Shown here in pieces: positions 1,164-63,640 of a stretch of DNA of 64,000 bases. A program made the translations under genes and the position numbers. This stretch comes from Chiloscyllium plagiosum (Eukaryota): assembly GCF_004010195.1 (NCBI RefSeq), contig NC_057718.1, positions 62,954,225 to 63,018,224 of the forward strand, written 5' to 3'. How positions within the stretch are numbered: position 1 is the first letter of the stretch; each line of letters starts with the position of its first letter. The notes beneath the pieces are model-generated. The model made no database searches. It worked only from the letters and a program-made list of their open reading frames with translations, and had not been told where the DNA came from.

Positions 1164-1670
1164 CCTTAAAAGTCACATAACACCAGAGTATAGTCCATTA
1201 GGTGGGTGGTTGATGAAGGAGCAGCACACCGAAACCTAGTGCTTCCAAATAAACCTAAAAATCACACAATTGTAAGACACAGAATTTATGGCAAAAGTTT
1301 ACAGTGTGATGTAAATGAAAGTATAAATTGAAAAATACCTTGATTGTCTGTTGACAAGAGACAATCAAGGTATTTTTCAATGTATAATTTCAGTTACATC
1401 ACACTGTAAACTTTTGCTATAAATTCTGTGCCTTACAATTGTGTCCTCCATAACCATCTGATGAAGGAGTGGCGCTCCGAAAGCTAGTGTGCTTCCAATT
1501 AAACCTGTTGGACTATAACCTGGTGTTGTGTGATTTTTAACTTTGTATGCCCCAGTCCAACACTGGCATCTCCAAATCATGTCAAATAAACCTGTTGGAC
1601 TATAACCTGGTGTTAAGTGATTTTTAATTTTGTACACCCCAGTCCAACATCGGCATTCCAAAATCATGAC
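1164..1670. mobile_element. PLE terminal-repeat mosaic, family B (tandem and inverted copies)
   Basis: Same sequence family as 7348-8690 and 63266-63640. Internal inverted repeat ~1268-1349 / ~1360-1443. Tandem 3' ends at ~1500-1580 and ~1584-1668. TSD-like TAACCA(T/A)TCAA at 1153-1163 and 1671-1681. Confidence 0.75.
1455..1489 (+). ncRNA. Minimal type I hammerhead ribozyme motif (PLE family B)
   Basis: cat-CTGATGA-A-GGAGT(GGC)GCTCC-GAAA-GCTA-gtg. Intact core, stem II, palindromic AGCU stem III, predicted CUA cleavage triplet. A degenerate copy lies at ~1210-1240. Confidence 0.65.
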
Positions 1671-2989
1671 TAACCAATCAATACAGGCTATAAATTTCAA
1701 AATCATACTCATTAAAAAGAAAATATGAAGCAGTGCAAAGCTAGGAGAGCAAAATGATGAGAGATTTTAATTCACACATCTGGTTCAAAGTAATAGTGGC
1801 AACATTACTTGATCTTTCAGCAATGAGCCCAGACTAACAGTATAATACAAAATTTGGGACTTCCGAAATTCGTGAACTACTTCCACATCCCTTGAATTTG
1901 GTAGAACAAGTATCATGGGAGATTGTCACAAATATTTAGATGCCCAGCTCTAGAGATGTCAACCCTTCCGACAGAGGCACGCTGTGGATCATCCCTACTG
2001 TTAGGATAACTACCATTCCATTTTGTTCCGACAGCCATCGGGAGGATTTTCATCCATAGTCTGAAAACACAATAATACCAAACCCGATAGACATATGTTA
2101 GATATAAATCCAATTCTATAGGCACAAAGTCCTTTCCCACGGTAGTTTGTGTTCTATAACAAACCAACTGACTATTTCAACTGTCTGTATTTCAAATCCA
2201 TGCAGTTTCATGAAAAGACACCATTTCTTTCTCCCAGTTTCACCAATTCTTTTTTGATGACATAATCTTCCATACTAATCTTCCCTTCTTGCAATGGTTC
2301 TTCTTTCCCATAATAGTCAAGACCTTTAGTTGAGTCAATCCTATTCCCCATGGTTCTATTCCCCTTTTCGTTGAATCCCTACCCCCACTTCAAAACCATG
2401 ATGAGATTCCCTGTTGTTCTCCTTTTCCATATTTTCCTGTCATTTCCACCAGCTCAATAATTTTATCATGCCCCTTCCTTCATTTTCAAAGCTCCTCCTT
2501 CATGACAATATGCTCACTCTTCCTACACCCATGTCTAGAGACAGGCAATAATCTACATCCAGAAAAAAAACCTCAAAATATACAAATAACTAAGCAGAGA
2601 CTTAGGTCATTTGGTCCAACTTATGCCCAATATGTGCCTCCCTTCCATAGCCTTCGTCTAACCCTATCAACATAACCTTCTATTCTTTTCTCACTCATGG
2701 GCTTTTCCAGCTTCCTCTTAAATGCATGTATTTTGCTTACCTCAAATGCTTGATTATGGAACCATACGACATACTCTAACCACCTTATACACAAACGTCC
2801 CACAAGAGGAGACATGACCAGATAATAATATTCTGGCATCATTAGTTGAAGGGCAAGTATTCCCCATTTCACTGCTCTTGCTCTCAATATGGACTGTTCA
2901 GGTGACCAGAGAACATTTTACAATGTGAGCAACAGTTGGCAAAACAGGAATAGTGTGAAATCTTAGACACATCCATGCAGATGTCTTAC

Positions 2990-3115
2990 CTGTTCGGTGT
3001 GCACACTGGGGTGAAGAGCGGACACTAGATTAAGAAGGTGACGGAGTGGAACAGGGTCCAGGTGCTTAATAAGGGAAGGGAACAAATCATGGATGTATCG
3101 ACTACAGTGCTTCAA
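2990..3115 (-). CDS. USP34: USP34 coding exon (exon 11 ortholog), 126 nt: LKHCSRYIHDLFPSLIKHLDPVPLRHLLNLVSALHPSVHTEQ
   Basis: Inside ORF 2963..3187. Acceptor ctgcaatacag, donor gtaaga. Confidence 0.95.
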
Positions 3116-3799
3116 CTGTATTGCAGGAGAGGAGAACATAAAAGGAAACATGTCAAAAAATACACTTGTGCACAGCTGAAATAACAAGTGTCACAAACTG
3201 GAGATATTAAAGCTGATCACATAATTAAGTTTTACAAAAGTTAATTGCCACGAATTAAACAGTTTTCAAAAGAGAAACTTCTACAAAAGAAACTTTAACC
3301 CAGGTGATGGATTGAGCCATTATTCTAAATCAGGTTGCAGCAGTGCAATGTTTGTCCAAGTGCAACATTACAAAGAAAGACACGATTACATCAAACAGTC
3401 CCAGGAAATTATTGATGGGATTAGATTAAAGCAAACTGAGAATTTAGACAAATAAAAGCTTGATTAGAACCAAGTTAAACTGAATAGCAAGAAGGTGTTG
3501 TTCAAGAGAACATAGAATTGACAAGATCATGGGGGGTGGGGGGGGGGGGGGGGTGTCTCATTATCTTCTAAAACCAAATATTTTTAGTGTTTAACTGTCA
3601 AACAAAGGAAACATATCACAAAACACAGATTTCTAATGTGTTTGCTGTCACACGTTACAGAGAAAAAAAAACTAAAAACAATTCTGAAAAAGCATCACCA
3701 TATGACTGAACAGCTAATGCAATTCCCATGACCAACAAACACAAATGCTGAAAACGGATACATTGATCACCTAGGAAAATCTAATCCAATCATATTCCA

Positions 3800-4540
3800 T
3801 TTCAGAGGAAAATCGATTATCCGAATATCGCATTATCCGAAGGAGATCTCGAGGTCCCGATAGAAATATTACATCAAAGACCGATCGCGCCTTTCGTTTA
3901 CAGTGATTAAAAATGAACTCCGCTTCCTGAAATGCTGCCTAGAACTGTCCTGCACAGATGGGAGCCCAGGCACTGTCTCCAAATGACTGACCTACGACCC
4001 TCTCCCTACTTTCCCTGGAGTTCTACTCAGGGATGTACCCTAAACCCCCCATTTCCCCAAATAATCTCTCCAACATTGTCCTGTCAAAGGTAGAACCTGT
4101 CAAAAAGTTGCAGTAGAAAGGGGTGTGCGTGTGTGTGTGTGCGCGCGTTATTTGGAGACTCACCCCCCAAGAGGCAGCAGCAGCAGCCTTCTTGTTGTTG
4201 GTGTCCAGTCCGGCTGCCCCAGAGCAGGGGCGGGGCTGCACAGGGGACGAAGTGTTGGACGGAGTTGGGGGGGGTGGGGGGCCAGTGTTGGAGCGGCTTG
4301 GGGGGCAGGTGTTGGACGGGGTTATGGGGTGGGCAGGTGATGTTGTACAGGGCTGGGGGCAGGAGACGACAGAGTTGGACGGGGTTGGGGGGCAGGCGGT
4401 CGTGGCAGAAGGCCGGGGGGGGCCAATGTTGGACGGGAGGCGGTGTTGGACGGGGTTTTGGGGGGGGTCTCACGTGTGTGGTATGCTGCTGCCTATTCTC
4501 CTGCCAAGGAGACAAGGATGAAAGATTGCATGCAAAGAAT
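3800..4540. repeat. GC-rich interspersed repeat containing a G-rich minisatellite (core TGTTGGACGGG, ~4250-4470) and (GT)n/(GCA)n tracts
   Basis: Sharp GC and CpG increase over the flanks. About 7 imperfect copies of gTGTTGGACGGgg. Left end has repeated ATTATCCGAA, resembling a DNA-transposon end; no matching right end seen. Confidence 0.6.
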
Positions 4541-4552
4541 CTCAAAAATGTA

Positions 4553-4745
4553 TCTGCCGCTTCCGGTTGTTGTAAATCACTATAAATGCCAGAGGAAACA
4601 TCACAGAAGCGCTTCACAGGAGGCTCCCAAGCACTGGAGGATGTCACCTAGACAGGGGACGAAACGTCTGCAACACAAATTTCCAGCTTGGCGAACAGAA
4701 CCACAACAACGAGCACCTGAGCTACAAATCTTCTCACAAACTTTG
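4553..4745 (+). mobile_element. PLE family C 3' fragment with HHR motif (extra G in core) at ~4631-4671
   Basis: Near-identical to 49300-49471. Motif gca-CTGGAGGA-TGTCACCTAGACAGGGGAC-GAAA-CGTC-tgc. Confidence 0.8.
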
Positions 4746-5177
4746 TTGCTCAAATCTGCAATGAACTAATCTCAGCTGCTGAAATAAGGTAACTATATTT
4801 AATATACAGTCAGCTTTGAACCACTGAACATAGTCCAAATGAGCTACTACATTTTTTGTGTTTGCATAAATATATAACTACTTACCTATATGCACAAATT
4901 CAAAACATTGTATTGAAAAGAAAACCTTTATCAATATTTCACTGGCATGCACAAATTAAGGCCAACTCTAACAAAAAAATTTAAATCACTTTTTGTCTCA
5001 GTAGGATTTGACGTTGAGTGTTCCTAATAAACACTACCTTTGCAAAATTACTTCCAAGAAAATCATTAAAATAGTCACTTTTTTGAAAAAAAAAGCAAAT
5101 ATGTATATTTGTATTATACAGTATTTGTCTTTTAAACACCAGAAGTCTGCAAAATTGTGGATTTATTTCATTAGTAC

Positions 5178-5270
5178 CTGTGCTGCTGCCCAAATACAAT
5201 CTATATGCTGTGTGCTAAGTCTCCCTTCTGCAGCTAGAAAGTTCAAGATGACTTGGCATTGTTTGATGAT
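5178..5270 (-). CDS. USP34: USP34 coding exon (exon 10 ortholog), 93 nt: IIKQCQVILNFLAAEGRLSTQHIDCIWAAAQ
   Basis: Inside ORF 5163..5387. Acceptor attttgcag, donor gtacta. Confidence 0.95.
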
Positions 5271-5389
5271 CTGCAAAATTAATAAATGGAAGAATTGTGA
5301 AAGCAGGAAACATGTTTTGCAAGCTTGTTTTGAGATGCTCAGTAGACGAGTGGGAGAGAAAGAAGAAAAAAAAAGTGATCCAGACAAAC

Positions 5390-5471
5390 CTCAATGTGCA
5401 AATTTGGTCCAAAGATATGTTCAACAACACTGTTATGAATTAGCCAGTCAGCTAGTTCCTTTGCAATTGAC
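5390..5471 (-). CDS. USP34: USP34 coding exon (exon 9 ortholog), 82 nt: (T)SIAKELADWLIHNSVVEHIFGPNLHIE
   Basis: Inside ORF 5339..5524. Acceptor atcgtgcag, donor gtttgt. Confidence 0.95.
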
Positions 5472-5673
5472 CTGCACGATAGTAAAAACAGGAAAAAAGG
5501 TTTACACCTAAAGATTTCCTTCAATTCCCTACTTCTGCAACTTTCTAGAACTGCATTGTTAATTTTCTTTCAGAAGGCTTATGGACATTTGGTAAACAAT
5601 CATCTTAATTATCTTCTCTCCACATAAGCATTTGATGTTGGATCATCTCTCTAATTGAAACACCGTTACTTAC

Positions 5674-5735
5674 GTTTCAGTATCTGACACCAAAGATTCA
5701 TTATTACAAACATCGTTGAATGTGTGAAGTTGATT
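5674..5735 (-). CDS. USP34: USP34 coding exon (exon 8 ortholog), 62 nt: NQLHTFNDVCNNESLVSDTE(T)
   Basis: Manual translation matches the recalled human sequence. Acceptor tttcctgacag, donor gtaagt. Confidence 0.95.
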
Positions 5736-5919
5736 CTGTCAGGAAAGAAAAGTTAGAAATTAAATTTTACAGATAAGTTAATTTGCAAATTAATTACTTT
5801 ACTGAAAATGTGAAGTTTATTGAATACAATTGATTTAAAAGGGAAACAGTACAACCAAGGGGTTTATTGGACATGCTTAGAAAACAAATTTCTTAAAAGT
5901 AATATCAAATTAAACCTTT

Positions 5920-8890
5920 TTCCATTGAGCCCCTCTTCATACCTCAGCCCTGCTATCGAAGGAATCAGACTGGCCAAACATTCCCGCCATAGCCAGAACA
6001 TCAATTCTCAGATAAAGAACAAACAAAAACTGCACACAACACAGATGTAGTCTCACCAAAGCTCTGTACGACTGCAACAAGACATCTCTGCTACTGAACT
6101 TGAATCTACTTGCTATGAAGGCCAACGTACCATTTGCTTTCTTTACAGCCTGTTGAACCTGCATGCTCACTTTCAGTGTCTGCATACCACGGTCTCATTG
6201 CACCTACTGCTTTCCCAACCCATCACCATTCAGATAATAATCTGCTTTCTGGTTTTTCCTACCAGAATGGATAACCTCACATTTACCCAGAATAAACTGC
6301 ATCTGTCAGGTATATGCCCACTCAGCTTGCTCACATGACGCTGAAGCATGTCTGCATCCTCCCAGTTCACCTTCCTATCCAGCTTTGTCTCATGTGCTAA
6401 CTTGGAGATGTTACATTTAGTTCCCTCAACTAAAATATTACTATACATTGTGAATAGCTGGGGTCCAAGCACTGATCCCTATGGTATCCCACTAGCCACT
6501 ACCTGCCACTCCAAAAGAAATCTCATTTATTACTACTTTGCTTCCTGCCTGTCAACCTGTTCTCTATTCATGTTAGTACACTACCCCCAATCCTAAGCAC
6601 TTTAATTTTACAGTTATCTCGTGGGACTTTATTGAACACCATCTGAAAATCCAAGTAAACGTCTTATCAACTCTACTGGTTATAGTCTCAAGATTCTGGC
6701 TGATTTGTCAAGCATGACTTTCTTTTCATAAATCCATGCTGACACTGTCTGATCCTGTCACTGTTTTCCCAAATGCTCTGCTATTAAACCTTGTCTAATG
6801 GGTTCTAGAATAATCCCTACTACTGTCAGTCCATCCAATCAATAATTCCGTGTTTTTACTCTACCTCCATTTTTGTTTCAAAATAATAATGAGATGACGT
6901 TAGCTACTTTCTTATCCATAGGAATTGTTCCAAAGTCTTTAAAATCTTGAAAGATGACCAGCAATACATCCACCATTCCAAGAGTCACTTCTGGGATGTA
7001 GATCATCAAGCCACGTGGATTTAATAGCTTTTAATCCTAATTAATTTTCTCACCTCCATTTCCCAACTAATACGGATTTCCTTCCGTTCCCCTTTCATTT
7101 GACCCAGTGTTTCCCAAAATTTTGGGGGACGTTATTTGCATCCACCTTTGTGAAGGCAAAACCAAATAGATTTGTTTAATTGGTCTGCCATATCGTCAAG
7201 TTGATAACTGTCCCTGTTTCTGACTGGAAGGTGCCTACATTTGTTTCCACTCATCATTTTTACATACCCCAATAAATGCTTTTACTATTTGTACGTGCCC
7301 CTACAAATTTACTCTCGTACTCCATTTTCTCCCACTTTATTTCCTTTTTAAAAACCACACAACACCAGATTATAGTCCAACAGGTTTAATTGGAAGCTCT
7401 AACTTTCAGAGTGCCGCTCCTTCAACAGGTGGTTGTGGAGGACACAATTGTAAGACACAGAATTTATAGCAAAAAAGTTTACAGTGTGATGTAACTGAAA
7501 TTATACATTGAAATATACCTTGGTTGTCTGTTGAGTCTATCAACTATTTGAATACCAGGATAGTTTCACTTCTTTCATATGTAAATCACAACCTTTTTTT
7601 AAAAAAAAGTTACATTCTCAGGTTAATTGTAACAATTGGTGTTAGTCAGATAACATGTTGAAGGTGTTAGCCCCCTGTGTCCTCCGTCTGTGCCATAACG
7701 TTTAGATTGATTCTAATCTAAAAAGTGAGTTAACAGAGTCTTACATGAATTCATGCAGTTGTTGAGCAAAGTACAACGTAATTCTGCAAGTACAAATTCA
7801 CCCCAGAAACATATATGTATATGAATGCATGTGTGTGTCTGTCTGTCTGGGGTGGGTTGTGAGTGAGAGTGAGTGTATATGTGTATATATATGAGTGTCG
7901 AGTGTCTAAGTCTGTGAGGAGGTGTGTGTGTTTGGGGTGGGGAGTTGTGAGTGTCTGTGAGAAAGTGTATATGTGTGTGAGTGTAGAATGGTCTGTGAGA
8001 GGATGTATGTGAGAGTGTGGGAGTGCATGTGTGAGAGTAGCTGTGTGCGTGTCTGTGTATAGGAGTGCGTGCGCGTATATATAAAATATATATATATAGT
8101 GCAATGGTGGTCACCTGTAGTATGACATAAACCCAAGGTCCCAATTGAGGCCCTCCCTATAGGTGCAGATCACACACGCACACAAAAACCCATATGCACG
8201 TGGGGTGAATTTGTACTTGCAGAGTTACATTGTACTTTGCTCAAAAACTGCATGAATTCATGTAAGACTCTGTTAACTCACTTTTTAGATTAGAATCAGT
8301 CGAAACATTATGGCACAGGCAGAGGACACAGGGGGCTAACATCTTCAACAGATTATCTGGCTAACACCAATTGTTACAGTTAACCTAAGAATGTAACTTT
8401 TAAAAAAAAGTTGTGATTTACATATGAAAGAAGTGAAACGATCATGGTGCTCAAACATATGAAAGACTCAAACAAACAATCAAGGTATATTTCAATGTAT
8501 AATTTCAGTTACATCACACTGTAAACTTTTTTGCTATAAATTCTATGTCTTACAATTGTGTCCTCCACAACCACCTGAAGGAGCAGTGCTCCAAAAGCTA
8601 GTGCTTCCAATTAAACCTGTTGGACTATAATCTGGTGTTGTGTGATTTTTAACTTTGTACACCCCAGTCCAACACCGGCATCTCCAAATCTTAATTTCCT
8701 TTATCCTTCTTTGCCAAAATCTAAACTGCTACCAATCTTCAGGAATACCCTACCTTGGATCTAATATTATCCCCAATTTCCTTTGTTAGCCACAGTCAGG
8801 CCAACTTTCCCATTTTATTTTTGTGCCAGACAGGAATGACCAATTGTTGCACTTCCTCCATGCACTCTTTACATGTTTGCCATTGCCTAT
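5920..8890 (-). mobile_element. Decayed CR1-clade LINE ORF2, interrupted by the PLE at 7348-8690
   Basis: ORF fragments LGPQLFT...CNISKLAHETKL and QVQQAVKKANGTLAFIAS...LLQSYRALVRLHL are typical CR1 RT and C-terminal sequence. Confidence 0.8.
7348..8690. mobile_element. PLE family B fold-back insertion with ~460 bp inverted arms and a (GT/GA)n-rich spacer
   Basis: 7348-~7805 is the reverse complement of ~8200-8652. Right arm has an extra 38 nt (8653-8690). Degenerate HHR cores at ~7397-7431 (-) and ~8572-8603 (+). TSD-like tt(t/a)atttccttt on both sides. Confidence 0.8.
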
Positions 8891-8921
8891 CCTGAAATAC
8901 ATCAAAAAAGGAGAAACAAGG

Positions 8922-9020
8922 CAAAAATAGAAATTGCTGGAGAAACTCAGCAAGTCTGGCAGCATCTGTAGAGAGAAAACAGTTAATGTTTCGGATCAAG
9001 TGACCCTTTCTTCAAAACTA
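8922..9020 (-). mobile_element. PLE family D terminal fragment with degenerate HHR
   Basis: Minus strand reads TTGAAGA-AA-GGGTC(ACTT)GATCC-GAAA-CATTAAC, followed by GATGCTGCCAGACTTGCTGAG..TCCAGCA. Related to 15645-15770. Confidence 0.6.
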
Positions 9021-10937
9021 ATAACATCAAGCAAGAAGTGATCTTAATTTTTAAATGCATATTTACTTGCATATGAAGTTTGGGAAGGACTTAAACTGGA
9101 ATGTACTTAAACTGGAATGTACTTTCTGACCCATTATGTATACTAAACAGGCAAAGTTAATAGGAAAGAATTTCTGGGAGATTCCCATGCTCATCTTCTG
9201 TAGAGAAGTGAAGAAATCCAAGAAAAAAAAGACTAAGCATCATTTATACTATTCTTCCAGAGTTTACTTGCCTCTCCAACTGAGTTATGGTTCACAAACA
9301 TAGGATCACCATAGTAATTAATATTAAAAAGTACTTTTGCTCTTATTTGACCAGAAACAGAAAAAATGCAGAACTGTTAATTTGGGAAAGTAGAAAAGTT
9401 GCATGTATAGATTGTCTGTAACATCAACATAATGTGTAACTGAAAAACAAACAAATGATTTGCATCCTAGAATCAGAAATAAAATTTCAAAATCTGTGGA
9501 CATTAAATTGCCACGGTTAGTTATTATTACACAATACTATCAAATGCATGACATTACTAAACTTGCAAAATGAGCATGCACTGACAAATGAATTTTAATA
9601 TAAGCATGTGTGGAGGTGGCAAAGTTTGCTAGGAAAGACATGGAAGTCAGTCTATTACTGGGATAACCGAGATTAAATTGGTGGAAGAACAAAGGAATTT
9701 GGAGCTACAAATACATACACCACAAAGAGTAACAATAGAAGAAGACAATAAAGCATTGAAACAAATAAAAAACAGTGCATTTCTAGAGGGAAGGAGTTAG
9801 AAAGGAGTGAAATTACATTGCATGTGCGTAAAAAACACACAGAAACAATAGATCTTTCATCCAAAGTCTGTTCCGCTATTCAATGAGATCACAATCTATC
9901 CAATAATGCTCAACTCCACTTTCCATTGTGCCCATGCTCTTGATTCCCTTTAATGATTAAAGATTTGTCTCTCAACTTGGAATATACCCAGCCTCAGTCT
10001 CCTGTGGTAAAGAATTCCACAGATTCACTACTATCAAAAGAAATTCCTCATCTATCTGAGATGGGTGACTCACTGCCTTAAATGGACAAACATAATTTGA
10101 TGGTGACATCACCCAAGAGTACACAGTTCCAGAATTCATATTATAAACAGGATATTGAAACACTGGTGAAGCTGCTGAGAAGATTCAGAAGGATGGTACC
10201 AGAATTTATAAAATACAATCAATAACTGCTGAATATCTAGGAATTTTTATACTGACTAATGAGCAACCCTTCAGATACCTCATGAAAGGGCTAGTTAGTG
10301 TAGTTAGCAATATTACTAGTATATCAAGAAACCAAAATATAAAAAGCTAAACACTAAGAAGTCCAATAAGGAATTCAGGAAAATTGTCTTGACATAGAAT
10401 GGTCAAAATATGGAACTCCCGATTTCAAAATGTACTGCCTGTGAATAAAAATTAAAGATATGCAGATAGCAACTGATCGAGCGGCTGGGGGGGGGGGGGG
10501 GGGGGGGGTAACCATTTAAACAGAGTCTAAACACTTGCATGGATCAGTTAAAGTGAATGACCTGTACCATTCTGACTTGGCAATAGATTGCTGTTTTTTT
10601 CAGTGTCGCTGGATCAAAATCATTAAACTTTCTCCCTAACAGAATAAATGGGTCAACCTATACCAGATGGACTGCCGCAGTCCAAGAAGATAGTTCATCA
10701 ACATATTCTCAAGGGAAGTAGGAATGGACAATAACCCAAACCACCAACATTCCACTGATGTATTTTTAAATATCTGTCCTGTTCATACAATTACAAGCAA
10801 TTCTAAATGAAAGCAGTTTTTTTTAAGCAGCAAGTTTAGGCACAATAATAGAATGCAACAAGTAACCAGAACCAATTGTATGTCACAAACATTCAGTTTT
10901 CAGTTAGTTAGTCAATGTCTACAAGGTTACGACTCAC

Positions 10938-11130
10938 TGTAATCTGACTCAGTCCAGCCAACCTCATAGTTAGAGTTGGTGACATGAAATACTTGAATGC
11001 AAGATCCAAACTTTCTTTATCAAAACATAGTGCTGTATCCAAGGGCTCCTTAACTGTACTCCACATCAAATCTGCCATGTTGCGTGCAGCACTTTGTCGC
11101 AATTCCTGGTCTGAAAGTTTACATAGATAC
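10938..11130 (-). CDS. USP34: USP34 coding exon (exon 7 ortholog), 193 nt: (R)YLCKLSDQELRQSAARNMADLMWSTVKEPLDTALCFDKESLDLAFKYFMSPTLTMRLAGLSQIT
   Basis: Inside ORF 10908..11225. Acceptor tcatatctag, donor gtgagt. Confidence 0.96.
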
Positions 11131-11273
11131 CTAGATATGAACATTTTTGAAAAATGTAAAATAGGATTATTTTTTTGAAAATGCACCTTAATTTTTTTCC
11201 AAATGAAAAACAAAGTATTTGCCATAGTATTTTTGATGGAATGTTAAAATGCGTATTCAGTCTGATCACTTAC

Positions 11274-11341
11274 CTTATAACATAAGTTCTAAAGGGGATA
11301 ACATGCTGCATAACAGCAGGGATGTGTAACCATATCCTGAT
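11274..11341 (-). CDS. USP34: USP34 coding exon (exon 6 ortholog), 68 nt: IRIWLHIPAVMQHVIPFRTYVI(R)
   Basis: Manual translation. Acceptor atgttacag, donor gtaagt. Confidence 0.95.
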
Positions 11342-11829
11342 CTGTAACATTAAACAAAACATAAACTGTTATAGTTCAATTACAAATTAACTCCTTTGCT
11401 AGAGCTACATTATGACTATTTAGCAAATACATTTATTTTACCATGCTAAAAATATTAACCATCACTTTCAGCATCAAAATACAACTTTCTGGGAGTCAGA
11501 TGGAAACTGTATGGTGCCTCTATAGGGCATCAGGAGATAACTCAAGAAAAACTGACCCAAGAGGCTATAGCAAGAGTAAAGATACATAGAGGGAAATAAA
11601 ATGTGTCACAAAATGGCATTAAATGACAGAAAGTTAGTTCAACTGCAATTACAATATAATAATATATTATAGTAGTACATAAGCAGTTTTTAAAATGCAA
11701 CTTCTTGTTCAATTAACTTATTGTAATTAATGTGCATCATTCCTGAGTATTTGTTATATTGTTTTTGCTGCTGCCCGTAAGTTCAGAGGTTATGTGGAAT
11801 AGCTTGAAAACTTCAAGTTTTAAATCATA

Positions 11830-12310
11830 CAGTAGGGTCCAGGGAGGGGCAATTTTCTCCATACAGATGGTGGTGAGTGCCTAGAATGGGGTCTCCTAGA
11901 GGTAGTGGTGGAAGCGAGTACAATTTCATTATTTAAGAAATATTCAGACAGCTACACGACTGCGATGGGTATTTTGGGGGGAGGGGGATATGGACCAAAC
12001 ACAAGCAAACGGGACTAGATTAGTTATGAAAACTGGGCAGCATGGACAAGTTGGGCCAAAAGGGCCTGTTGGGAGACAGTGAGGACTACAGATGCTGGAG
12101 ATCAGAGTCTTGAGTCCGGTACTGGAAAAGCACAGCAGGGTAGGCAGCGTCTGAGGAGCAGGAGAATCGACATTTCGGGCGTTGCCCTTCATCAGGGATG
12201 AGAAATTCACATTCCTGATGAAAGGCTTATGCCCGAAACGTCGATTCTCCTGCTCTTCGGATGCTGCCTGACCAAAGGGCCTTTTTCCAAATTGTAGACC
12301 TGTATAACTA
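11830..12310 (+). mobile_element. CR1/HER1-type LINE 3' end, with the PLE at 12071-12272 inserted in its tail
   Basis: The tail gcatggacaagttgggccaaaagggcctgtt also occurs at 1-35, ~26110-26160, ~38875-38935 and ~62525-62580. Confidence 0.7.
12071..12272. mobile_element. PLE family A fold-back insertion with two divergently oriented HHR motifs
   Basis: Minus ~12165-12199: CTGATGA-A-GGGC(AAC)GCCC-GAAA-TGTC-gatt. Plus ~12211-12246: attc-CTGATGA-A-AGGC(TTAT)GCCC-GAAA-CGTC-gatt. Duplicated flank CCAAA(A)GGGCCT.TT. Confidence 0.8.
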
Positions 12311-14549: not shown

Positions 14550-14772
14550 GGAGAAAGTGAGGTCTGCAGACGCTGGAGATCAAAGCTGAAACTTTATTGC
14601 TGGAACAGCACAGCAGGTCAGGCAGCATCTAGGGAACAGAAGATTCGACGTTTCGGGCACATGCCCTTCTTCAGGAATGTGAGAAGAAGGGCATGTGCCC
14701 GAAACGTCGAATCTTCTGTTCCCTAGATGCTGCCTGACCTGCTGTGCTGTTCCAGCAATAAAGTTTCAGCTT
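14550..14772. mobile_element. Young PLE family A fold-back insertion: perfect 90-bp inverted repeat, 15-bp TSD
   Basis: Arms 14583-14672 and 14683-14772 are exact reverse complements with a 10-nt spacer. TSD CTTATCCCAATTTAT at 14535-14549 and 14770-14784. Confidence 0.9.
14643..14678 (-). ncRNA. Intact minimal type I hammerhead ribozyme motif on the USP34 sense strand
   Basis: AUUC-CUGAAGA-A-GGGCA(UG)UGCCC-GAAA-CGUC-GAAU. Stem I AUUC/GAAU is perfect, stem II intact, GUC triplet, palindromic ACGU stem III. Confidence 0.75.
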
Positions 14773-15182
14773 ATCCCAATTTATATCAAGGCAAGTATTC
14801 TCATAAGCCCCAATTTACATCTCAAAATAAATATCTTTCCACTCCATATTTATATTCAATTTTCAAGTTCCCTAAAATAATCGTGTCAGGTTTTTCGATC
14901 TTTGAGGACTGCGTAGGTGTATACCATAAAGTCTCAGACGACATAAGTCTCAAAAGAACTCATTTCAAATCTACAGGAACTCAAATGAATTCTGCAACTC
15001 ACTGGATAATAAATAAAAAGGGGCATTTATTTTATTTGCTTCGGGTTGAAGGACCAGATTCCCCGGCTTAAGAATCTGGAGGTGGTCAGAGTTTGGATAT
15101 AATGCCCTAAAATACAGGCAACCTAAATCAAAACATCCTGTTTTTCATACAACTTAAAACTATTCGGCAATCCAAGCAATAA

Positions 15183-15475
15183 GGGCAGCACAGTGGCTCA
15201 CAGCACTAGCGTCCCAGGTTCGATTCCAGCCTTGGGTGACTGTCTGTGTGGAGTTTGCACATGCTCCCAGTGTCTGCGTGGGTTTCCTCTGGATGCTCCG
15301 GTTTCCTCCCACAATCCAAAGCTGTGCAGGTCAGGTGAATTGGCCATGCTAAATTGCCCATAGTGTTAGGTGCATTAGTCAGAGGGAAATGGGTCTGGTT
15401 GGGTTGATCTTCAGAGGGTTGGTGTGGACTGGTTGGGCCGAAGGGCCTGTTTCTACATTGTAGGGAATCTAATCT
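15183..15475 (+). mobile_element. tRNA-derived V-SINE (HE1-like)
   Basis: A-box-like agtggctca, B box GGTTCGATTCC, V-domain ctgtgtggagtttgcac...ggtttcctcccaca, and LINE-type tail gggccgaagggcctgttt...aatctaatct. Confidence 0.85.
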
Positions 15476-24138: not shown

Positions 24139-24214
24139 TGCTCACAGACACCAACTTCATCAAGATAGAGAGCAAAGAAATCTAACAAAATGAACACATG
24201 AACAAGACAGACTG

Positions 24215-49356: not shown

Positions 49357-49396
49357 GCACTGAGGATGTCACCTAGACAGGGGACGAAACGTCTGC
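49357..49396 (+). ncRNA. Hammerhead ribozyme motif (PLE family C, longer stem II)
   Basis: GCA-CUGAGGA-U-GUCACCU(AGAC)AGGGGAC-GAAA-CGUC-UGC. Stem I GCA/UGC, GUC triplet. Confidence 0.7.
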
Positions 49397-49739
49397 AACA
49401 CAAATTCCCAGCTCGGCGAACAGAACCACAACAACGAGCACCTGAGCTACAAATCTTCGCACAAACTTTGAACATCCCTTCTCAAGTACAGAAACTAAAA
49501 CTGTATGCAATACTCCAGGTGCAGTCTCACTAATATTTTGGACAGTTACAGCAACACTCCCTCATTTTCATTCTCTACTCTTTTAGTGATAAATGCAAAA
49601 ATTCCATTTTGCCTTCCTAATTACTTTTAGTCAGAAAAGACGTGCCCCAGATCAGGCCGAGTCAGAATGAACATAGGTTAGATGAGAAATTACAATGGTC
49701 TAGAAATACAAATGGGAGTACTTTAAATATTCCAACAAC

Positions 49740-52700
49740 AGCAGTGTCATTGAACAAACAAATAAACAGATGGAGCTTAATCAAAGAGTGTAATAATGGT
49801 GGGGGGCGTTAATCTTCATATTGTCTGACCCAATCAAATTAAGGTAGTCGAGAAAATGCATTTATGAAATATTCTTGCAACATTTCCTGGAACAATACAT
49901 TATGGAAACAAAGAAAGATAAATCTAATTCAGAACTAATATTATGTAATGAGAATGGGTTAATTTGTAATTGCACAGTAAAATGATCCATGAGAAGACAT
50001 CTTGTTACCACAACGCAATTCAATATCATATTAAGTTTGAACGCAACATACTCAAGCCCAAACAAGAATCTTAAACCTAAACAAAGCAGGGTGGGATGGC
50101 AGACCACAGTGGCTAGCAATGCTGCCTCACAACATCAGGACCCAGGTTAGATTTGTGCCTTGCGTGACTGTCTGTGTGGAGTTTACACATTATCCCCATG
50201 TCTGCTTGGGTTTCCTCCTTCAATCCAAAAGATATGCAGGTGAGGTGAACTGGCCATGTTAAATTGCCCAGTGTTAGGTGCATTAGTCAGGGGTAAATAT
50301 AGGGTAAGGGAATGGGTCTGGGTGGGTTACTCTTCAGAGGGCCGGAGTTGTTTGGGCCTAAGGGCCTGTTTCCATACTGTAAGGAAGCTAATCTAATCTA
50401 AAAGCTAGTTACAGAGGTAGAGGGGAAGGTCACTAAAGTTGACTAGGTAAGTAAATGAAAAAGGTATGACAATGAATAAACAGTGGAACTTTTTTCAAGA
50501 AACAATTAAAAGAAGTGTTCAATAAAAATACATACTAATAAAAAACTCAGCAAAAAAGAAATAATAATTGATTGATCTACAGCTTAAACAAAGTTAAGGA
50601 TAGTAATAAAAAGACTTAAAACGTTGCTAAATATATGTCTAACTATGAGGATTGAGAGTCCTATAGAAACCAGCTAAGAGCCAACAAATAAATAGTGGAT
50701 ATACAGGAAAAGAAATAAAGGGTATGACAGCAAGCTAGTCAGGAATATAAAAACAGATCCTAATAGCTTTTACAAGTATATAAAAAGATGCGTTGTTAAA
50801 GTAAAAAGGTCTGTCGCTTAGGGGCAGAAACAGCAGAGAATCATGGGGAAAAAGAAAATGGCAAAAACATGGGCAAATATTGTATACGTCTGCCTTCACA
50901 GTGAAAGACACAAATTACACACCAGAAAGTGTGTGTAAGGAGCTAATAGAAGAGGGACAGATACATAAAATAGTTAATATTAGTGAAAACTTAGAGAAAA
51001 TTTAAAGAATTAAACCCTAACCCAGGATATGACAGTCCACATATTAGGATTCTAAAAAAAGGTAGCTGCAGAGATAGTCAACATACTGATTATTATTTTC
51101 CAAAATTGCCTAGATTCTATAACAGTCCCATGAATTTGAAGTGTGTAGAGGTAACATCGCTATTCGATCAAGGAAGGGAGAGAACACAGGGAACTACAAG
51201 CCAATTAGTCAGACGTCAGTCACTGGGTAAAGTCCAAAATTTATTAAAGAAGTCTCAACAACTCACAAAGAAAATCTTGTCAGAATCATCAAATTTAACA
51301 TGACTTTACAAACGGGAAATTACGTTTATGAAATTAATTCAGAGTTATTTCAAAGATGTAATTCGTAGGTTAGATTCATGGGATCCAGTAGGTGCAGTTT
51401 AGGTAACACATCACGGGGATTTAGATAGGCTAAACGAATGATGAAAATGGAATTATAATATGGAAAAATGTGAAGTTATTCTCCTTGGTGGGAAGAACTG
51501 AAATGCAGGATGTGTCTTAAAATGAATAAAGTTTAGAAGTGTTAATATCTAAAGGTGACTTGGGTGTCCTTATTCATAAATAACTGGAAGTATGCAGGTG
51601 CAGCAAATAAATTAAGAAAACAAATGATATATGGTCTTTATTACAAAAGAAATACTGGAGTTAAAAAAAAAGTCTTGTTGCAATTGTATGTACCATGGTA
51701 CAGAGACACCATGAGATGTGATTTGATTGAAGCATACAAATTTCCCACTGAGCTCAGCAGGGTTAATGCAGGAAGGATGATCCATGTGATGGCATCAAGG
51801 AGTCTACAGAGGACAGGCTCAAAATAAAAGAGGTATACTATTTAGCATTAAGAGGAGGAAGTTTTTTTTTTAATTCTGAAGATGGTGAATGTTCGCAATT
51901 CTCTACTGCATCAGGCTATGGAGACTCAGTCAGTGGGTATATTCAAGACAGACTGATATATTTCCATTTATTAAAGATATTGAGGGATATGGAAATAGTG
52001 CAAAAACATAAGTGTGAGGTATATTGGCCATGATGTGGCTCAAGGAGCCAAAAGGCTACAGCTCCTATGTGTTACATTTCTATTTTGGGATTTCAAAAAG
52101 GCATTTGATAAGGGGGTCTCACCAAACAAGGGGTCATGGGGTTAAGGGCAACAAATTTCCATGGAAAGAGGATTTGTTAACTGCTGGCAAGTAGGAATAA
52201 ACAGGGCATTTTCAGTTTGGAGGCTGTGATTAGTGAGTCTTCAGATGATGTTTACAGTTTACTTGAAATACCTAAACCAAAGGACAGAGGGAAACATATC
52301 TAAATTTGCTGACATTGCAAAGCTGCATGAGAATATAAGGTGTGCAGACAAATTGAGGCTGCAGAGACAGAGACAGACAGATAGGTTAAGTGAATAAGCA
52401 ACAACTAAGCATAATGCAGAGAAGTAACAGATTATTCACTTCGGTAGTAAAAATAAAAAAGCCAACTTTTTTTTAGAACGATGAATGTTGCTGTTTAGAG
52501 ATCTAGGGTATATACTTACAAGAAGCATAGAATATTAGCGTGTAAATGCAGCAGGAAAGCAAATGGCATATTCACCTTTTAATGCCAAATGACTGAATTG
52601 AGAAGCCCTGCTAAAATTGAACAGGAGTTTGATCAACTATTGTGTACGGCTTTGATCTCCCTATCTAAGAAGTGTAGTTAGCTCCTGGGCTGAGGGAGCT

Positions 52701-53470
52701 GTCCCAGGTCAGGTTGCAAAATAAATCCAACCTGTGCTGTCTGGAAATTGGAAGAGTAAGAGTTGATTCCATTGAAACACAATAGATTCTGAAAGGGCTG
52801 ACCAGGTGACCATAAGAGGCAGATTATTTAAGACTTCGAAGAGAAATTTATTTGTTCAAAAATTTGTGAATCTTTGAAATCTCTACCTCAGAGGTTTATA
52901 CATACTTCATTGTTGAATATAACAACCAGACAGACTGACTTTTGTTTCATGGAATCAAGAAATCTGGAAGCAAACAAGAAAGTGCAGCCAAGACTAAATG
53001 TAAATCATGATTGTAATGAACAGAGGAGCAGGTTCAAGCAGTTGCTGGTCTACCACTTTTTTTAAAAACGTTCTGTGTCTCTGTATGTCTCAGAGTTTAG
53101 AAGGATGAGAGGAAATATAATTGAGGCATACAAAATGTTAAAAAGTGAGTTGATAAAGTAAACACAAAAGGGGATGCTTCCTCTGTGGGACAATTTAGAA
53201 TGATAAATCATAGTTTTAGGCCAAGGGTGGCAGTCTTGAAACAGAGAGGAGGAGAAATTACTTCTCTCAAAAGGGGAATTCAGTAAAATAGTAGAATTCA
53301 CTACCCCAAAGTGCAGGGGACATCAGGATACTGAATAAATTTGAGGAGACAGACAGATGTACAATTAGTAATGAGTTAAAGAGTTTATAGGAAGCAGGCA
53401 GGAAAGTGGAGTTCAAGTCAAGGGGAGATCAGCGAAGAAGGCTCAAGGGGCTAAATTGTCTACTCCTTTT
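49740..53470 (+). mobile_element. Cluster of heavily decayed CR1 fragments, interrupted by the SINE at 50098-50400
   Basis: Recurring CR1 ORF2 remnants (gattttcaaaaaggcatttgataag, tctaaatttgctgac, MRCDLIEAYK) and several 3' tails. Confidence 0.65.
50098..50400 (+). mobile_element. tRNA-derived V-SINE (HE1-like)
   Basis: Same family as 15183-15475; ends ctaatctaatcta. Confidence 0.85.
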
Positions 53471-53533
53471 ACTTGTTAACAGAAAACATAAATGTTATTA
53501 CAAAGTCATTCTATAAATAGAAAGTAAACATAC

Positions 53534-53621
53534 CTTTGCGTCCAAGAGTTGATGTAATTAAATATCTTGAGCGCATGTTCCTTTTTGAGCTGCAACCCTT
53601 CATTATTTTCTGTTTCAGATA
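53534..53621 (-). CDS. USP34: USP34 coding exon (human exon 2 ortholog), 88 nt: xSETENNEGLQLKKEHALKIFNYINSWTQ(R)
   Basis: Manual translation resembles recalled human USP34 ISDVEGGDGLQLRKEHTLKIFTYINSWTQR. Acceptor ctctccttgcag, donor gtatgt. Phase 1 in, phase 2 out. Not in the ORF track. Confidence 0.93.
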
Positions 53622-53869
53622 CTGCAAGGAGAGGACAACAAAAGATTCATCAGTTTTATCTAGACCACAAGATCGGACCCATTTTTTCCTCTATCTCTCT
53701 CTTTCCTTCTCCCTGTTACATGCATCCCATTACCCCTTAAAACACATCAATTCTTCCTACTTCAATCACTTGTTATGGCAGGAAATTACACATGCATCAT
53801 CATTCTTCCATGAAGGAATGTTCAATTATTGCATTAACTCTTGTTATCTATTAACTGTCCACATCCAGC

Positions 53870-59519: not shown

Positions 59520-62500
59520 AACAGAAAGGATAGAAAGGGAGGCAAGAGGGGAGGGGGAGTGGCATTTTTGATAAGGGATAGTGTTACAAGCTGTATTTAG
59601 GGAGGATATTCCCTGAAATACACCCAGGAAAAAGTTACTTGGGTGGAACTGAGAAATAAGAAAGGGATGATTACCTTTTTGGGATTATATTATAGACCTC
59701 CTAATAGTCAGCTGGAAACATCTTTGTAAGGAGATTTCAGTTAACTCTTGGAATACTATGGTGCTTATGGGAGGGGATTTTATCTTTTCAAATAAAGACT
59801 GGGACTGCCTTGGTGTTAAGGCTTCAGATGGAGAGGAATTTGTTAAGTGTGTACAGGAAAGTTTTCGGATTCAGTATGTGGATGCACCTTCTAGAGAAGG
59901 TGTAGAACTTGACCTACTCTTGAGAAATAAGGAAGGGCAGGTGACAGAGGTGCCAGTGGGGGACCACTTTGGGGCCAGCAACCATAATTCTATTAGTTTT
60001 TGTAAAAAGTGATGAAAAAGGATAGACCAGATCTAAAAAGGTGAAGTTCTAAATTGGAGGAAGACTAATTTTGATGGGGTATTAGGCAAGAACTTTCAAA
60101 AGCTGATTGGGAGCAGATGTTCACAGGTAAAGGGACGACTGGAAAATGGGAAGCCTTCAGAAATGAGATGATGAGTGTTCAGAGACAGTATATTCCTCTT
60201 AGCGTGAAAGGAAACGCTAAAGGAAACGGTAGGGGTAGGGAATGCTGTATGACGAGAGAAATTGAGGGATTAATTAAGAAAAAGGAGGAAGCATATGTCA
60301 GGTATAGACAGGACAGATTGCATGAATCCTTAGAAGAGTATAAAGCCAGGGGGAGTACGCTTAAGAGGGAAATCAGGAGGGCAAAAAGGGGACATGAGAT
60401 AGCATCAGCAAATAAAGTTAAGGAGAATCCAAAGGGTCTTTACAAATACATTAAGGACAAAAGGGTAACTAGGAAGAGAATAGGGCCCCGCAAAGATCAG
60501 CAAGACAGCCTTTACATGGAGCCACAAGAGATAGAGGAGATACTAAATGGGCATTTTGCATCAGTATTTAGTGTGGAAAAATATATAGAAGATATAGAAC
60601 GTAGGGAAATAGATGGTGACATCTTGGAAAAATGTCTAGATTACAGAGGAGGAAGTGCTGGATGTCTTGAAACAGGTAAAGGTGGATAAATCCCCAGACC
60701 TGATCAAGTGTACCCTAGAACTCTGTGGGGAGCTAGAGGAGTGATTGCTGGGCCTCTTGCGGAGATATTTATTTGTATCATCGATAGTCACAGGTGAAGT
60801 GACAAAAGACTGGAAGTTAGCTAACATGGTTCAGAAAAGGTGGTAAGGACAAGCCAGGGAATCAAAAGTGTGGGAGAAGATTTGTAGCTCAGGTGTTCGT
60901 GGTTGTGGCTCTGTTCGCCGAGCTGGGAATTTATGTTGCAGATGTTTCGCCCCCTGTCTAGGTGACATCCTCAGAGATCAGCCAGGGAATTCCTAGAGGC
61001 ATGGCACTCATCCACAGATTCAATCAATAAGCACATCGACCCTGGACCCAATATACCGGCCACTGCAGCGGACAGCTGGAACTGACAACTGGAAGCGGCA
61101 GGTACAAATCACTATAAATGTCGGAGGAAACATCACAGAAGCGCTTCACAGGAGGCTCCCAAACACTGAGCAGGGGACGAAACATCTGCAACACAAATTG
61201 CCAGCTCGGCGAACAGAACCACAACAACAAGCCAGGGAACTATAGACCAGTGAGCCGGACATCAGTGGTGGGCAAGTTGTTGGAGGGAATCCTGAGGGAC
61301 AGGACGTACATGTATTTGGAAAGGCAAGAACCGATTAGGGATAATCAACATGGCTTTGTGTGAGAGAAATCATGTCTCACAAACTTGATTGAGTTTTTTG
61401 AAGAAACAAAGAGGATTGATGAGTGCAGAGTGGTAGACGTGACCTATATGGACTTCAGTAAGGCATTAGATTCGGTTCCCCATGGGAGACTGGTTAGCAA
61501 GGTTAGATCTCATAGAATACAGAGAGAACTGACCATTTGGATGTCGACTGGCACAAAGGTAAAAGACAGAGGGTGGTGGTAGAGGGTTGTTTTTTAAACT
61601 AGAGGCCTGTGACCAGTGGAGTGCCATAAGAATCGGCGCTGGATTCACCACTTTTATTCATTTATATAAATGATTTGGATGCGAGCATAAGAGGTACAGT
61701 TAGTAAGTTTGCAGATGACACCAAAATTGGAGGTGTAGTGGACAGCGAAGGTTACCTCAAATTACAATTGGATCTTGATCAGATGGGCCATTGGGCTGAG
61801 AAATGGCAGAAAGAGTTTAATTTAGATAAATGTGAGGCGCTACATTTTGGGAAAGCAAATCTTAGCAGGACTTATACATTTAATGGTCAGGTCCTAGGGC
61901 ATGTTGCTGAACAAAGAGACCTTGGAGTGCAGGTTCATAGCTCCTTGAAAGTGGAGTCGCAGGTAGATAGGATAGATTGGCATGGTTTTCTTTATTGGTC
62001 AGAGTATTGAGTGTAGGAAATGGGAGGTCATGTTGCAGCTATACAGGACATTGGTTTGGCCACTTTTGGGAATATTGCGTGCAATTCTGGCCTCCATCCT
62101 ATCGGAAAGATGTCGTGAAATTTGAAAGGGTTCAGAAAAAATTTACAAGGATGTTGCCAGGATTGGAGGATATGAGCTATAAGGAGAGGTTGAATAGGCT
62201 GGAGCATCAGATGCTTATGGAGGTTTATAAAATCATGAGGGGCATCGACTGGGTAAATAGACAGTCTCTTCCTTGGGGTGGGCGAGTCCAGAACTCGAGG
62301 GCATAGGTTTAGGGTGAGGGGGGCAAGATATAAAAGAGACCTATGGGACAACTTTTTCATGCAGAGGTTGATGAGTGTGTGGAACGGGGTGGCAGAGGAA
62401 ATGTGGAGGCTACCACAAATGCAACATCTAAAAGGCATCTGGATGGGTACATGAATAGGAAGCGTTTCGAGGGATTGGGCCAAGTGCTGGTAGGTAGGAT

Positions 62501-62580
62501 TAGTCTAGGTTGAGATATCGAGTTGGCATGGACAAGGTGGACCAAACAGTCAGTTTCCGTGCTTGACATCTCTATAACTG
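59520..62580 (+). mobile_element. CR1 (HER1-like) LINE, most of ORF2 plus 3' tail, pseudogenised
   Basis: GLYYRPPNS, VDAPSREGVELDLLL, KENPKGLYKYIKDKR, PGNYRPVS, YMDFSKALDSVPH, SKFADDTK, EYCVQFW. Confidence 0.92.
60862..61228. mobile_element. PLE family C fold-back insertion inside the CR1, 13-bp TSD
   Basis: TSD ACAAGCCAGGGAA at 60849-60861 and 61227-61239. Minus arm 60862-60974 has the HHR core CUGAGGA...GAAA-CAUC. Plus arm 60972-61228 has its HHR stem II deleted. Confidence 0.88.
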
Positions 62581-62958
62581 AAGTATGCAATATTGAGATT
62601 CACAGAACTCCTTCAGTAAAGCTTCAGTTGTGAAAATGATGTCTTCCAATGGATTTTTCACACTCAAACATTGATGAAAAAGCTTTAAAAGAATTGGTAA
62701 AGACTTTTGCTTTTGTGGCAAGTTTTTTGTGACCATGTTCAAACCAAAATAACCTTTTATAGCCTGAAGCATGTAACCTCTTTGAAAAAGTGTTGTACAC
62801 TTAGTGTCTCCATCCAAGCAGCTTGCTCTTTACAAATGCAACATTGATACTAGCTGCAGCAAGTTTTGCTTTGTAAAGTAACTTTCCAAAAAGTTCAAGA
62901 TAAATATCTTGATACAGATAAAAATAAATACATACATATATGTACATTACAAGTGAAT

Positions 62959-63178
62959 GCAGGGTGAGCCTCGTATCCACAGGATTGTTTTCCGCTGTTT
63001 CAGTTACCTACTGTTTACCACAGCCCAAACATGCTATGGGGAACGTTCCAGAACCAGGGACCAGGAGGCTACCAGGAAGGTACGTTTCCCATTTAAATGA
63101 ATGGGTTCGCTCCGATCCACAGTTTTGGGCTTCCACTGCAGGTCTTGCAACGTTTCCACGTGGATACGGGGTACTGCT
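62959..63178. mobile_element. Probable Tigger-like MITE
   Basis: Imperfect TIRs CAGGGTGAGCCTCGTATCCAC and GTGGATACGGGGTACTG. Confidence 0.5.
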
Positions 63179-63265
63179 ATATTGTAAGTTAATATTTTGT
63201 GGAATATCGCTCAAACCAACATGCTTAGAGACTATAAAGCAACAGGAACAACCTTAATATCTTAC

Positions 63266-63640
63266 TTTCCTGATTTGGAGGTGCCGGTGTTAGACTGGGG
63301 CAGACAAAGTTAATAGTCGTCCAACGGATTTATTGGGAAGTACAAGATTTCAGAGCACCTGCTCCTTTGTCAGGTAGCGAGTGGGGCAGGATCACTGATC
63401 TTTTCCTATAAATTCTGTGTCCTATGATCCTGCCCCAATAGCTACCTGACGAATGAGCAGCGCTCTGAAAGCTTGTACGTCCAAATAAACCCACTGGACT
63501 ATAACCTGAACATCAGGAATGATGAAGGGCTTATGCTCGAAAGGTCAATTCTCCTGCTCCTCGGATGCTGCCTGACCTACTATGCTTTTCCAGCACCACA
63601 CTCTGACTATAACCTGGGTGTTGTGAGATTTTTAACTTTA
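63266..63640. mobile_element. PLE family B fold-back insertion containing a nested family A fragment (63509-63604)
   Basis: Inverted arms ~63325-63393 and ~63426-63492. Plus-strand HHR motif ac-CTGACGA-ATGAGC(AGC)GCTCT-GAAA-GCTT-gt at ~63443-63476. Nested insert flanked by GACTATAACCTG at 63497-63508 and 63605-63616. Confidence 0.8.

What the first reader, a model, noticed from the sequence alone, without database searches (positions are those of the whole stretch)
1164..63640. At least four families of hammerhead-ribozyme-bearing Penelope-like elements in USP34 introns
Seen in sequence: about 17 intact or degenerate copies of CTGANGA-N-hairpin-GAAA-NNUH at about 11 insertion sites. They fall into families with different stem II and different self-complementary stem III. 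A: GGGC..GCCC with GAAACGUC (12.2, 14.6, 22.8, 24.0, 29.6, 63.5 kb). B: GGAG..CUCC with GAAAGCUA or GAAAGCUU (1.2, 1.5, 7.4, 8.6, 63.4 kb). C: GUCACCU..AGGGGAC with GAAACGUC (4.6, 48.9, 49.4, 60.9, 61.2 kb). D: GGGUC..GAUCC with GAAA.. UUAAC (9.0, 15.7 kb). The core is kept while the stems covary, which is the expected signature of a selected RNA structure. Established: PLE terminal repeats carry minimal type I HHRs with palindromic stem III that cleave as dimers. Inference: these shark families may be uncharacterised, and the different palindromes (ACGU vs AGCU) could restrict dimer partners by family.
Basis: partly seen in the sequence, partly recalled or inferred. Interest (0 to 1): 0.72.

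Follow-up and report, generated by a model that had tools for sequence, protein, structure and literature searches.

The report
Shark Penelope stubs carrying hammerhead ribozymes
These motifs are real but are the end-pieces of four ordinary Penelope-like jumping-gene families, present about 164,000 times with an intact core in this likely shark genome and mostly mutated in this gene, and most short copies stop at the motif's first letters rather than at its predicted cut site, so they likely record DNA copying to the capped front of an uncut RNA.

Summary
Observation confirmed: 21 motif-bearing copies lie at 12 sites, all in introns of minus-strand USP34. Only 3 are fully canonical; 9 keep the core. 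All four families lead to GIY-YIG endonuclease frames: A, B and D are Neptune-type, C is Poseidon-type. The genome holds 164,338 intact cores against 83 in controls, and density here is average. The architecture, several families per genome and alternative palindromes were published in 2014 for other animals. Corrections: D uses ACGU with a GUU site, and A, C and D share one palindrome, so palindromes separate only B. The catalytic G decays like any CpG (68/319 vs 149/775), which gives no sign of a host role. Most informative result: 5' ends pile up at the ribozyme's first bases, about 30 nt after a TATA-like box, and family A has an excess extra G (10,206 G vs 4,524 A). Abutting inverted pairs carry one long and one short tail (69/74). 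This likely marks reverse transcription running off a capped, uncut transcript that begins with the ribozyme. The scan noted this before on other DNA, including this genome. Cleavage is untested.

The parts
1164..1670 (+). Family B site: decayed motif at 1210, canonical motif at 1458-1486 (+, antisense to USP34), inverted upstream arm 1265-1353, duplicated 87-nt tail
4564..4746 (+). Family C (Poseidon-type) terminal-repeat copy; core has a one-base insertion
7348..8691 (.). Family B head-to-head pair with long inverted arms; both cores broken
8920..9045 (-). Family D copy, C3 changed and palindrome CpG-decayed, GUU-type site
12073..12273 (.). Family A head-to-head pair fused at -8/-6 of the core; long tail on the minus copy
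14550..14773 (.). Family A head-to-head pair, 90-nt perfect inverted repeat; canonical motif 14647-14674 on the USP34 sense strand, predicted to be locked in the long hairpin
15645..15770 (-). Family D solo copy starting at -6; stem II partly deleted
22727..24135 (.). Old A/D-related element: broken RT-thumb, linker and GIY-YIG frame (about 23024-23797, minus) between two decayed, outward-facing terminal repeats
29577..29672 (+). Family A solo copy starting at -6; G12 decayed
48842..49471 (.). Family C head-to-head pair with endonuclease C-terminal coding remnants; canonical motif 49360-49393 (+)
60864..61244 (.). Family C head-to-head pair; one palindrome decayed, one core partly deleted
63268..63601 (.). 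Family B head-to-head pair with a family A copy inside its right tail
2978..53640 (-). USP34 exons within the window (host gene; context only)

Best explanation
The motifs are minimal type I hammerhead motifs in the terminal repeats of four Penelope-like retrotransposon families; the copies in USP34 are mostly mutated, likely inert stubs, most of them likely made when the element's reverse transcriptase started about 90 or 125 nt inside its own RNA and ran off the capped 5' end, which likely begins at the ribozyme's first bases. Shown: PLE identity, copy numbers, two 3' end points, the 5' pile-up, the upstream TATA-like box, the excess G (family A), one-long-one-short inverted pairs and CpG decay of the core. 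Inferred: that the pile-up is the transcription start; that the G is a copied cap; that each inverted pair is two cDNAs primed from the two ends of a cut target and joined; that the RNA templates were uncut, since the copies span the cut site; and that the motif was selected only while its family was transposing. Cleavage, if any, would need a dimer or protein help and was not tested.
For: GIY-YIG frames lie upstream of A, B and D repeats and an RT plus GIY-YIG frame for C. In 1.17 Mb not chosen for the motif, 5' ends fall within -15..+10 of C3 in 109/192 A, 32/76 B and 30/68 D copies, 2.9-3.9% per nt against 0.3-0.7% at the cut site +/-4. Upstream flanks are unrelated host DNA or the inverted partner. 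A TATA-like hexamer sits at -35/-37 in 15/15 long A copies, -38/-40 in 11/13 B and -33/-35 in 5/5 D. Before the A at -4 of family A, G occurs 10,206 times and A 4,524 times genome-wide, against 26 G in the first 100 rows at a control boundary; none of 9 long reference copies has G there. 69 of 74 abutting pairs have one long and one short tail. G12 decays in 68/319 against 149/775 at other CpG sites, p=0.45. Frangieh 2024 (PMC11167929) showed two internal RT start sites, extension of both DNA strands and uncut RNA as the main substrate in vitro.
Against: No RNA 5' end was observed: the one informative RNA run showed no start or end pile-up. Family C does not pile up at the ribozyme (4/28); its ends lie at -26..-45 (13/28), a loose fit to its box at -53. 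The A box (TTTATC/CTTATC) is a weak TATA. D. virilis Penelope has a TATA-less internal promoter with an intron before the ribozyme, so the layout is not universal. Non-CpG core bases are somewhat better kept than flanks (61 vs 84 expected, p=0.01; 114 vs 169 before subfamily correction). Copies starting exactly at the cut site number 598 against 183-427 at neighbouring boundaries, so some cleaved templates are not excluded. The G test covers family A only and its control is confounded by fold-back junctions.
Confidence: 0.7

Rival explanations
1. The same PLE stubs, but the 5' pile-up comes from structure or microhomology: the RT falls off or folds back at the ribozyme hairpin and short palindromes, not at a capped RNA end.
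For: Many junctions use short self-complementary stretches, some centred in stem II (B +8/+8). Ends spread over about 20 nt rather than one base. Family C ends lie near an internal palindrome.
Against: Solo copies with unrelated flanks stop at the same place. The stop lies after the RT has passed the hairpin. Family-specific box-to-stop spacing and the G excess are not predicted by this model.
Confidence: 0.17
2. The ribozymes cut the element RNA in vivo as family-restricted dimers, and the copies derive from cleaved or re-ligated circular templates (model of Cervera and De la Pena 2014).
For: The core and palindrome are kept across families with changed but paired stems. There is a modest excess of starts at the cut site (598 vs 183-427). 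B cannot pair stem III with A, C or D.
Against: No cut-site peak in the sampled copies: 12 of 364 start within +/-4 nt of the cut, at or below background rate. A, C and D share one palindrome. The published in vitro activity is low, and 8 of 9 Xenopus dimers did not cleave. The cut-site count is confounded by purine-rich flanks and by an ATTC repeat on both sides of the motif.
Confidence: 0.1
3. Some copies are co-opted by the host to cut or regulate USP34 pre-mRNA.
For: One canonical motif (14674) lies on the sense strand.
Against: Only 3/21 copies are canonical. Orientation in the gene is 31 sense vs 26 antisense. Density is 37.5 per 100 kb vs 32.6 genome-wide. The sense copy is predicted to be buried in a 90-bp hairpin (-189.6 kcal/mol).
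Confidence: 0.03

Closest known systems
Minimal hammerheads (min-HHR) of metazoan PLE terminal repeats (Cervera and De la Pena 2014, PMC4209133; parts 1-2 of 4 and supplement file 2 parts 1-2 of 3 read)
   Same: Type I layout, extra base after A9, G10.1-C11.1, 4-nt palindrome (ACGU, AGCU, AUAU all listed), GUC/GUU/CUA sites, several families per genome, mostly solo or opposite-strand copies.
   Different: No shark in the parts read or in the supplement search. Counts there are about 4,000 (coelacanth) and 9,000 (Xenopus) against 164,338 here, by different search methods. 5' ends were not mapped in the parts read.
Poseidon element of Anolis carolinensis, PAc (Frangieh et al. 2024, PMC11167929; parts 1-2 of 4 read)
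   Same: Two internal RT start sites bounding a 30-40 nt tail, both DNA strands extended, uncut RNA as substrate. In family C an ATG opens a frame at the start of stem II, as in PAc.
   Different: PAc was studied in vitro; no cap run-off or start-site pile-up is reported in the parts read. A, B and D are Neptune-type.
Neptune and Penelope/Poseidon EN+ PLE clades (Craig et al. 2021, PMC8557442; passages read)
   Same: C-terminal GIY-YIG; zinc-finger linker in A, B, D and absent in C; 5'-truncated inverted copies; tail at one end only; start site in the terminal repeat for D. virilis Penelope.
   Different: Here the dominant insertion is a 100-250 nt stub or stub pair that ends at the ribozyme's 5' edge.
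Non-LTR retrozymes (Li et al. 2026 preprint 10.64898/2026.07.22.740005; parts 1-3 of 5 read, supplements closed)
   Same: PLE-derived type I hammerhead units, reported in one cartilaginous fish.
   Different: Retrozymes are head-to-tail tandem arrays; the window copies are solo or head-to-head.
Untemplated 5' G of LINE-1 insertions (PMC9341517; passages read)
   Same: An extra G at the 5' junction, read as a copied mRNA cap.
   Different: In L1 it marks full-length copies; here it would mark 130-nt copies because RT starts internally.

Membership tests
Minimal type I hammerhead (min-HHR) | Core CUGANGA...GAAA and NUH site | tested here: met
   9 of 21 window copies; 164,338 genome matches vs 83 control
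Minimal type I hammerhead (min-HHR) | One extra base after A9 and G10.1-C11.1 closing stem II | tested here: met
   Commonest type of each of the four families
Minimal type I hammerhead (min-HHR) | Palindromic 15.1-16.1 in place of helix III | tested here: met
   Of 92 motifs in 1.17 Mb: CG 51, GC 14, CpG-decay forms (CA, TG, TA) 21, other 6
Minimal type I hammerhead (min-HHR) | Short stem I with family-specific paired arms | tested here: met
   A 2-4, B 3-4, C 3, D 4 pairs from majority arms; no formal covariation statistic was run
Minimal type I hammerhead (min-HHR) | Self-cleavage as dimer or with protein | not testable with these tools
   Needs bench assay; RNA reads uninformative
EN+ Penelope-like element | C-terminal GIY-YIG endonuclease just upstream of the terminal repeat | tested here: met
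   A 9 loci (a tenth row shares its frame with a D copy), B 4, D 2; C
EN+ Penelope-like element | PLE-type reverse transcriptase in the same frame | tested here: inconclusive
   Met for C; fragments upstream of A repeats; not found for B or D in the DNA held
EN+ Penelope-like element | Inverted 5'-truncated partner and optional 30-40 nt tail at one end | tested here: met
   Two 3' end points per family; 69 of 74 abutting pairs long+short
Neptune clade (A, B, D) | CX2-5CXXC linker before the endonuclease | tested here: met
   Seen in A and B frames, degenerate in one D locus; also fits Nematis; no RT tree built
Penelope/Poseidon clade (C) | No linker zinc finger | tested here: met
   L232 frame; no RT tree built
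Non-LTR retrozyme | Head-to-tail tandem units each with a ribozyme | tested here: not met
   No such array in the window
Annotated Dfam/Repbase family | Match to a curated consensus | not testable with these tools
   Libraries not held

The most novel reading that the evidence does not exclude
In shark Neptune-type Penelope elements the transcript begins at the first base of the hammerhead. About a million genomic stubs are abortive products of internal priming that ran off the cap, often as two cDNAs (one from each RT start site) joined head to head. The genome thus records the element's promoter, both priming sites and an uncut template, and the ribozyme's job would be 5'-end control of the RNA (decapping or translation) rather than release of monomers.
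Probability: 0.5. Interest if true: 0.62.

Novelty: new member of a known kind. Interest (0 to 1): 0.4.

Why it matters
How Penelope-like elements copy themselves and what their ribozymes do is still open. A genome with about 164,000 intact cores and roughly a million stubs gives enough events to read start sites, priming sites and template state from DNA, and it names exact positions to test by 5' RACE and in vitro assays. The families themselves and their presence in USP34 are ordinary.

Tried and rejected
Rfam scan: no hammerhead hit, only hairpin-type chance matches. Pfam did not recognise the window's decayed PLE frames. My first family B pattern had the wrong loop length (26 hits) and was corrected (23,938). 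Direct-repeat pairs about 3.3 kb apart (L127, L128) were not full-length elements. One search had an off-by-one in core positions for A and D and is superseded. A local test of the extra G was too small (6 of 10), so genome-wide counts were used. An unmodelled upstream subfamily as the cause of the pile-up was considered: copies with shared upstream flanks (36/76 A) are, on inspection, those with an abutting inverted partner. A conserved spliced first exon was rejected for the same reason. Sequencing runs: no RNA holder listed on record. Of two raw single-cell runs laid on a family A copy, one gave 1,475 of 12,955,460 records in both orientations, continuous over the predicted cut and with no start or end pile-up; the other gave none. 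This neither shows nor excludes cleavage or a start site. Cut-site boundary counts were inconclusive. Lunse et al. 2016 is not held; only its title was seen in a reference list. Literature searches (listings only unless cited) showed no paper describing shark PLE hammerheads or cap run-off in PLEs. Subscription papers, supplement file 1 of PMC4209133 and the closed supplements of the 2026 preprint may hold them.
Full report
Observation. The motifs are there. A family-blind pattern gives 8 window matches against 1.03 expected. Family profiles built from real copies give 24 hits, 21 of which cover the ribozyme region, at 12 sites. All lie in introns of USP34, which runs on the minus strand through and beyond the window. 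Most copies are damaged: 9 of 21 keep the 11 core bases and 3 are fully canonical (1458, 14674, 49360). Intact genomic copies read GAAA-CG-U-U then AACU, pairing with AGUU upstream (28 of 31 with U at the cut position), and the two window copies have CpG-decayed palindromes.

What the elements are. Family C leads to a frame with an RT (Pfam RVT_1, E 1.4e-9) and a GIY-YIG motif without a linker zinc finger. Its best relatives are bamboo-shark proteins at 87-91%, so the host is likely a carpet shark. Long A, B and D copies have GIY-YIG frames 290-1,000 nt upstream, with a CX4CXXC-type linker in A and B and a degenerate one in D. The window's 23.0-23.8 kb remnant matches the A-type frame. By the criteria in Craig 2021 (passages) A, B and D are Neptune-type and C is Penelope/Poseidon-type. 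No RT was found for B or D and no tree was built.

Abundance. Exact patterns count 21,237 A (one N7 variant only), 23,938 B, 3,987 C and 380 D. Family-blind cores number 132,800 with ACGU and 31,538 with AGCU, against 72 and 11 for reversed controls; these patterns do not test stem II pairing. In 95 stretches taken at round coordinates (912,072 called bases) there are 297 profile hits, 32.6 per 100 kb, or about 1.16 million if extrapolated. The window's 37.5 per 100 kb is ordinary, and orientation inside USP34 is 31 sense to 26 antisense. PLE expansion in shark introns is reported for the whale shark (10.1101/443036, passages).

Selection. Between families the core is constant while stems I and II change and stay paired, which fits selection on transposing masters. 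Within copies the essential G12, which sits in a CpG, decays in 68 of 319 cells against 149 of 775 at other CpG sites (p=0.45). Non-CpG core bases are somewhat better kept than flanks (61 observed vs 84 expected in 186 of 383 copies that fell into clusters of 6 or more, p=0.01). Inherited flank variation and profile anchoring could cause this, but it is a result against pure neutrality. Monomers fold no better than shuffles, and the one canonical sense-strand copy is predicted inside a 90-bp hairpin with its inverted partner.

Partner restriction. A, C and D share ACGU and only B has AGCU. With majority arms, stem I gives 0 pairs for A x C and C x D and up to 4 (two of them G-U) for a D core on an A substrate. 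Restriction is plausible but would rest mostly on stem I. All these palindromes and several families per genome are already in Cervera and De la Pena 2014.

Ends of the copies. Each family has two 3' end points about 35-40 nt apart, and 69 of 74 abutting head-to-head pairs carry one long and one short end, as described for PLE tails. The 5' ends are the informative part. They fall within -15..+10 of C3 in 109 of 192 A, 32 of 76 B and 30 of 68 D copies that reached past +60 and did not touch a stretch end. That is 2.9-3.9% per nt, against 0.3-0.7% at the cut site and 0.2-1.6% further upstream. Family C differs (4 of 28; 13 of 28 at -26..-45). Flanks are host DNA or the inverted partner. A TATA-like hexamer lies at -35/-37 (A, 15 of 15), -38/-40 (B, 11 of 13), -33/-35 (D, 5 of 5) and -53 (C, 11 of 12). 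A and D have an initiator-like sequence with its A at -4, the first base of stem I (motif definitions recalled, not from a call). I formed this reading before consulting earlier notes. An untemplated 5' G is read as a copied cap in L1 (PMC9341517, passages).

Mechanism. Most likely a promoter in the terminal repeat starts the RNA at the ribozyme's first bases. The element protein cuts both DNA strands and primes at two internal sites, as shown in vitro for the anole element (PMC11167929). When it uses the sites nearest the 5' end it copies 100-130 nt and runs off the cap, giving solo stubs or two cDNAs joined head to head. Because the copies span the cut site, their templates were uncut or re-ligated. 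The start site, the cap origin of the G and the joining step are inferred.

Against and open. No RNA end was seen. Starts exactly at the cut site (598) exceed neighbouring boundaries (183, 287, 427), but flank composition, single-base deletions and an ATTC repeat on both sides of the motif confound this. D. virilis Penelope has a TATA-less promoter and an intron before its ribozyme (PMC2377424, passages). Published activity of such motifs is low or protein-dependent (review PMC6765202, passages).

Verdict. A real feature and a new member of a known kind. It is ordinary for USP34, notable for copy number, and useful as a DNA record of PLE transcription start and priming. The scan has noted the same pattern on other DNA; nothing was noted near this window.

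Noticed in passing
L232:1213-2691 (family C protein): Apart from shark copies and unnamed metagenome records, the named relatives among the best 120 are all parasitic flatworms (e.g. Dicrocoelium 51%, Opisthorchis 53%, Clonorchis 54%, Spirometra 41-48%); no bony fish is named. The Clonorchis motif in the 2014 alignment also resembles family C. Possible old host-parasite transfer; no tree was built.
   Followed up: no
G000:C1:17220150, 25229437, 27599627, 65452851, 143964878: Five identical motifs with an AUAU palindrome among the first 100 rows: possibly a small fifth family in which a double CpG change kept the palindrome. Most other AUAU rows look like decayed A, C or D.
   Followed up: no
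L157:1541; L173; L182; G000:C1:22510797: Further hammerhead types beyond the four (GAGUC/GACUC stem II, older C-like types, a long stem II type) appear.
   Followed up: partly
window:4641-4746: In family C an ATG at the start of stem II opens a frame through the whole tail, as reported for the anole Poseidon element.
   Followed up: partly
window:57800-58790: Decayed DDE_1 (pogo/Tigger-like, name recalled) transposase remnant.
   Followed up: no
window:25400-26150, 39900-41990, 44690-45240, 59670-62570: LINE-type RT fragments, likely CR1-like (label recalled; Pfam RVT_1 for 61630-62010), and a SINE-like repeat at 15.2, 50.1 and 58.9 kb.
   Followed up: no
window:4244-4465: G-rich imperfect tandem repeat about 100 nt upstream of the 4.6 kb family C copy.
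   Followed up: no
L205-L206 (about 86-99 kb beyond the window end): Exons matching the part of a sturgeon protein that lies before its USP34 part; that protein carries exportin-1 Pfam domains, so this is likely the neighbouring XPO1 gene.
   Followed up: no
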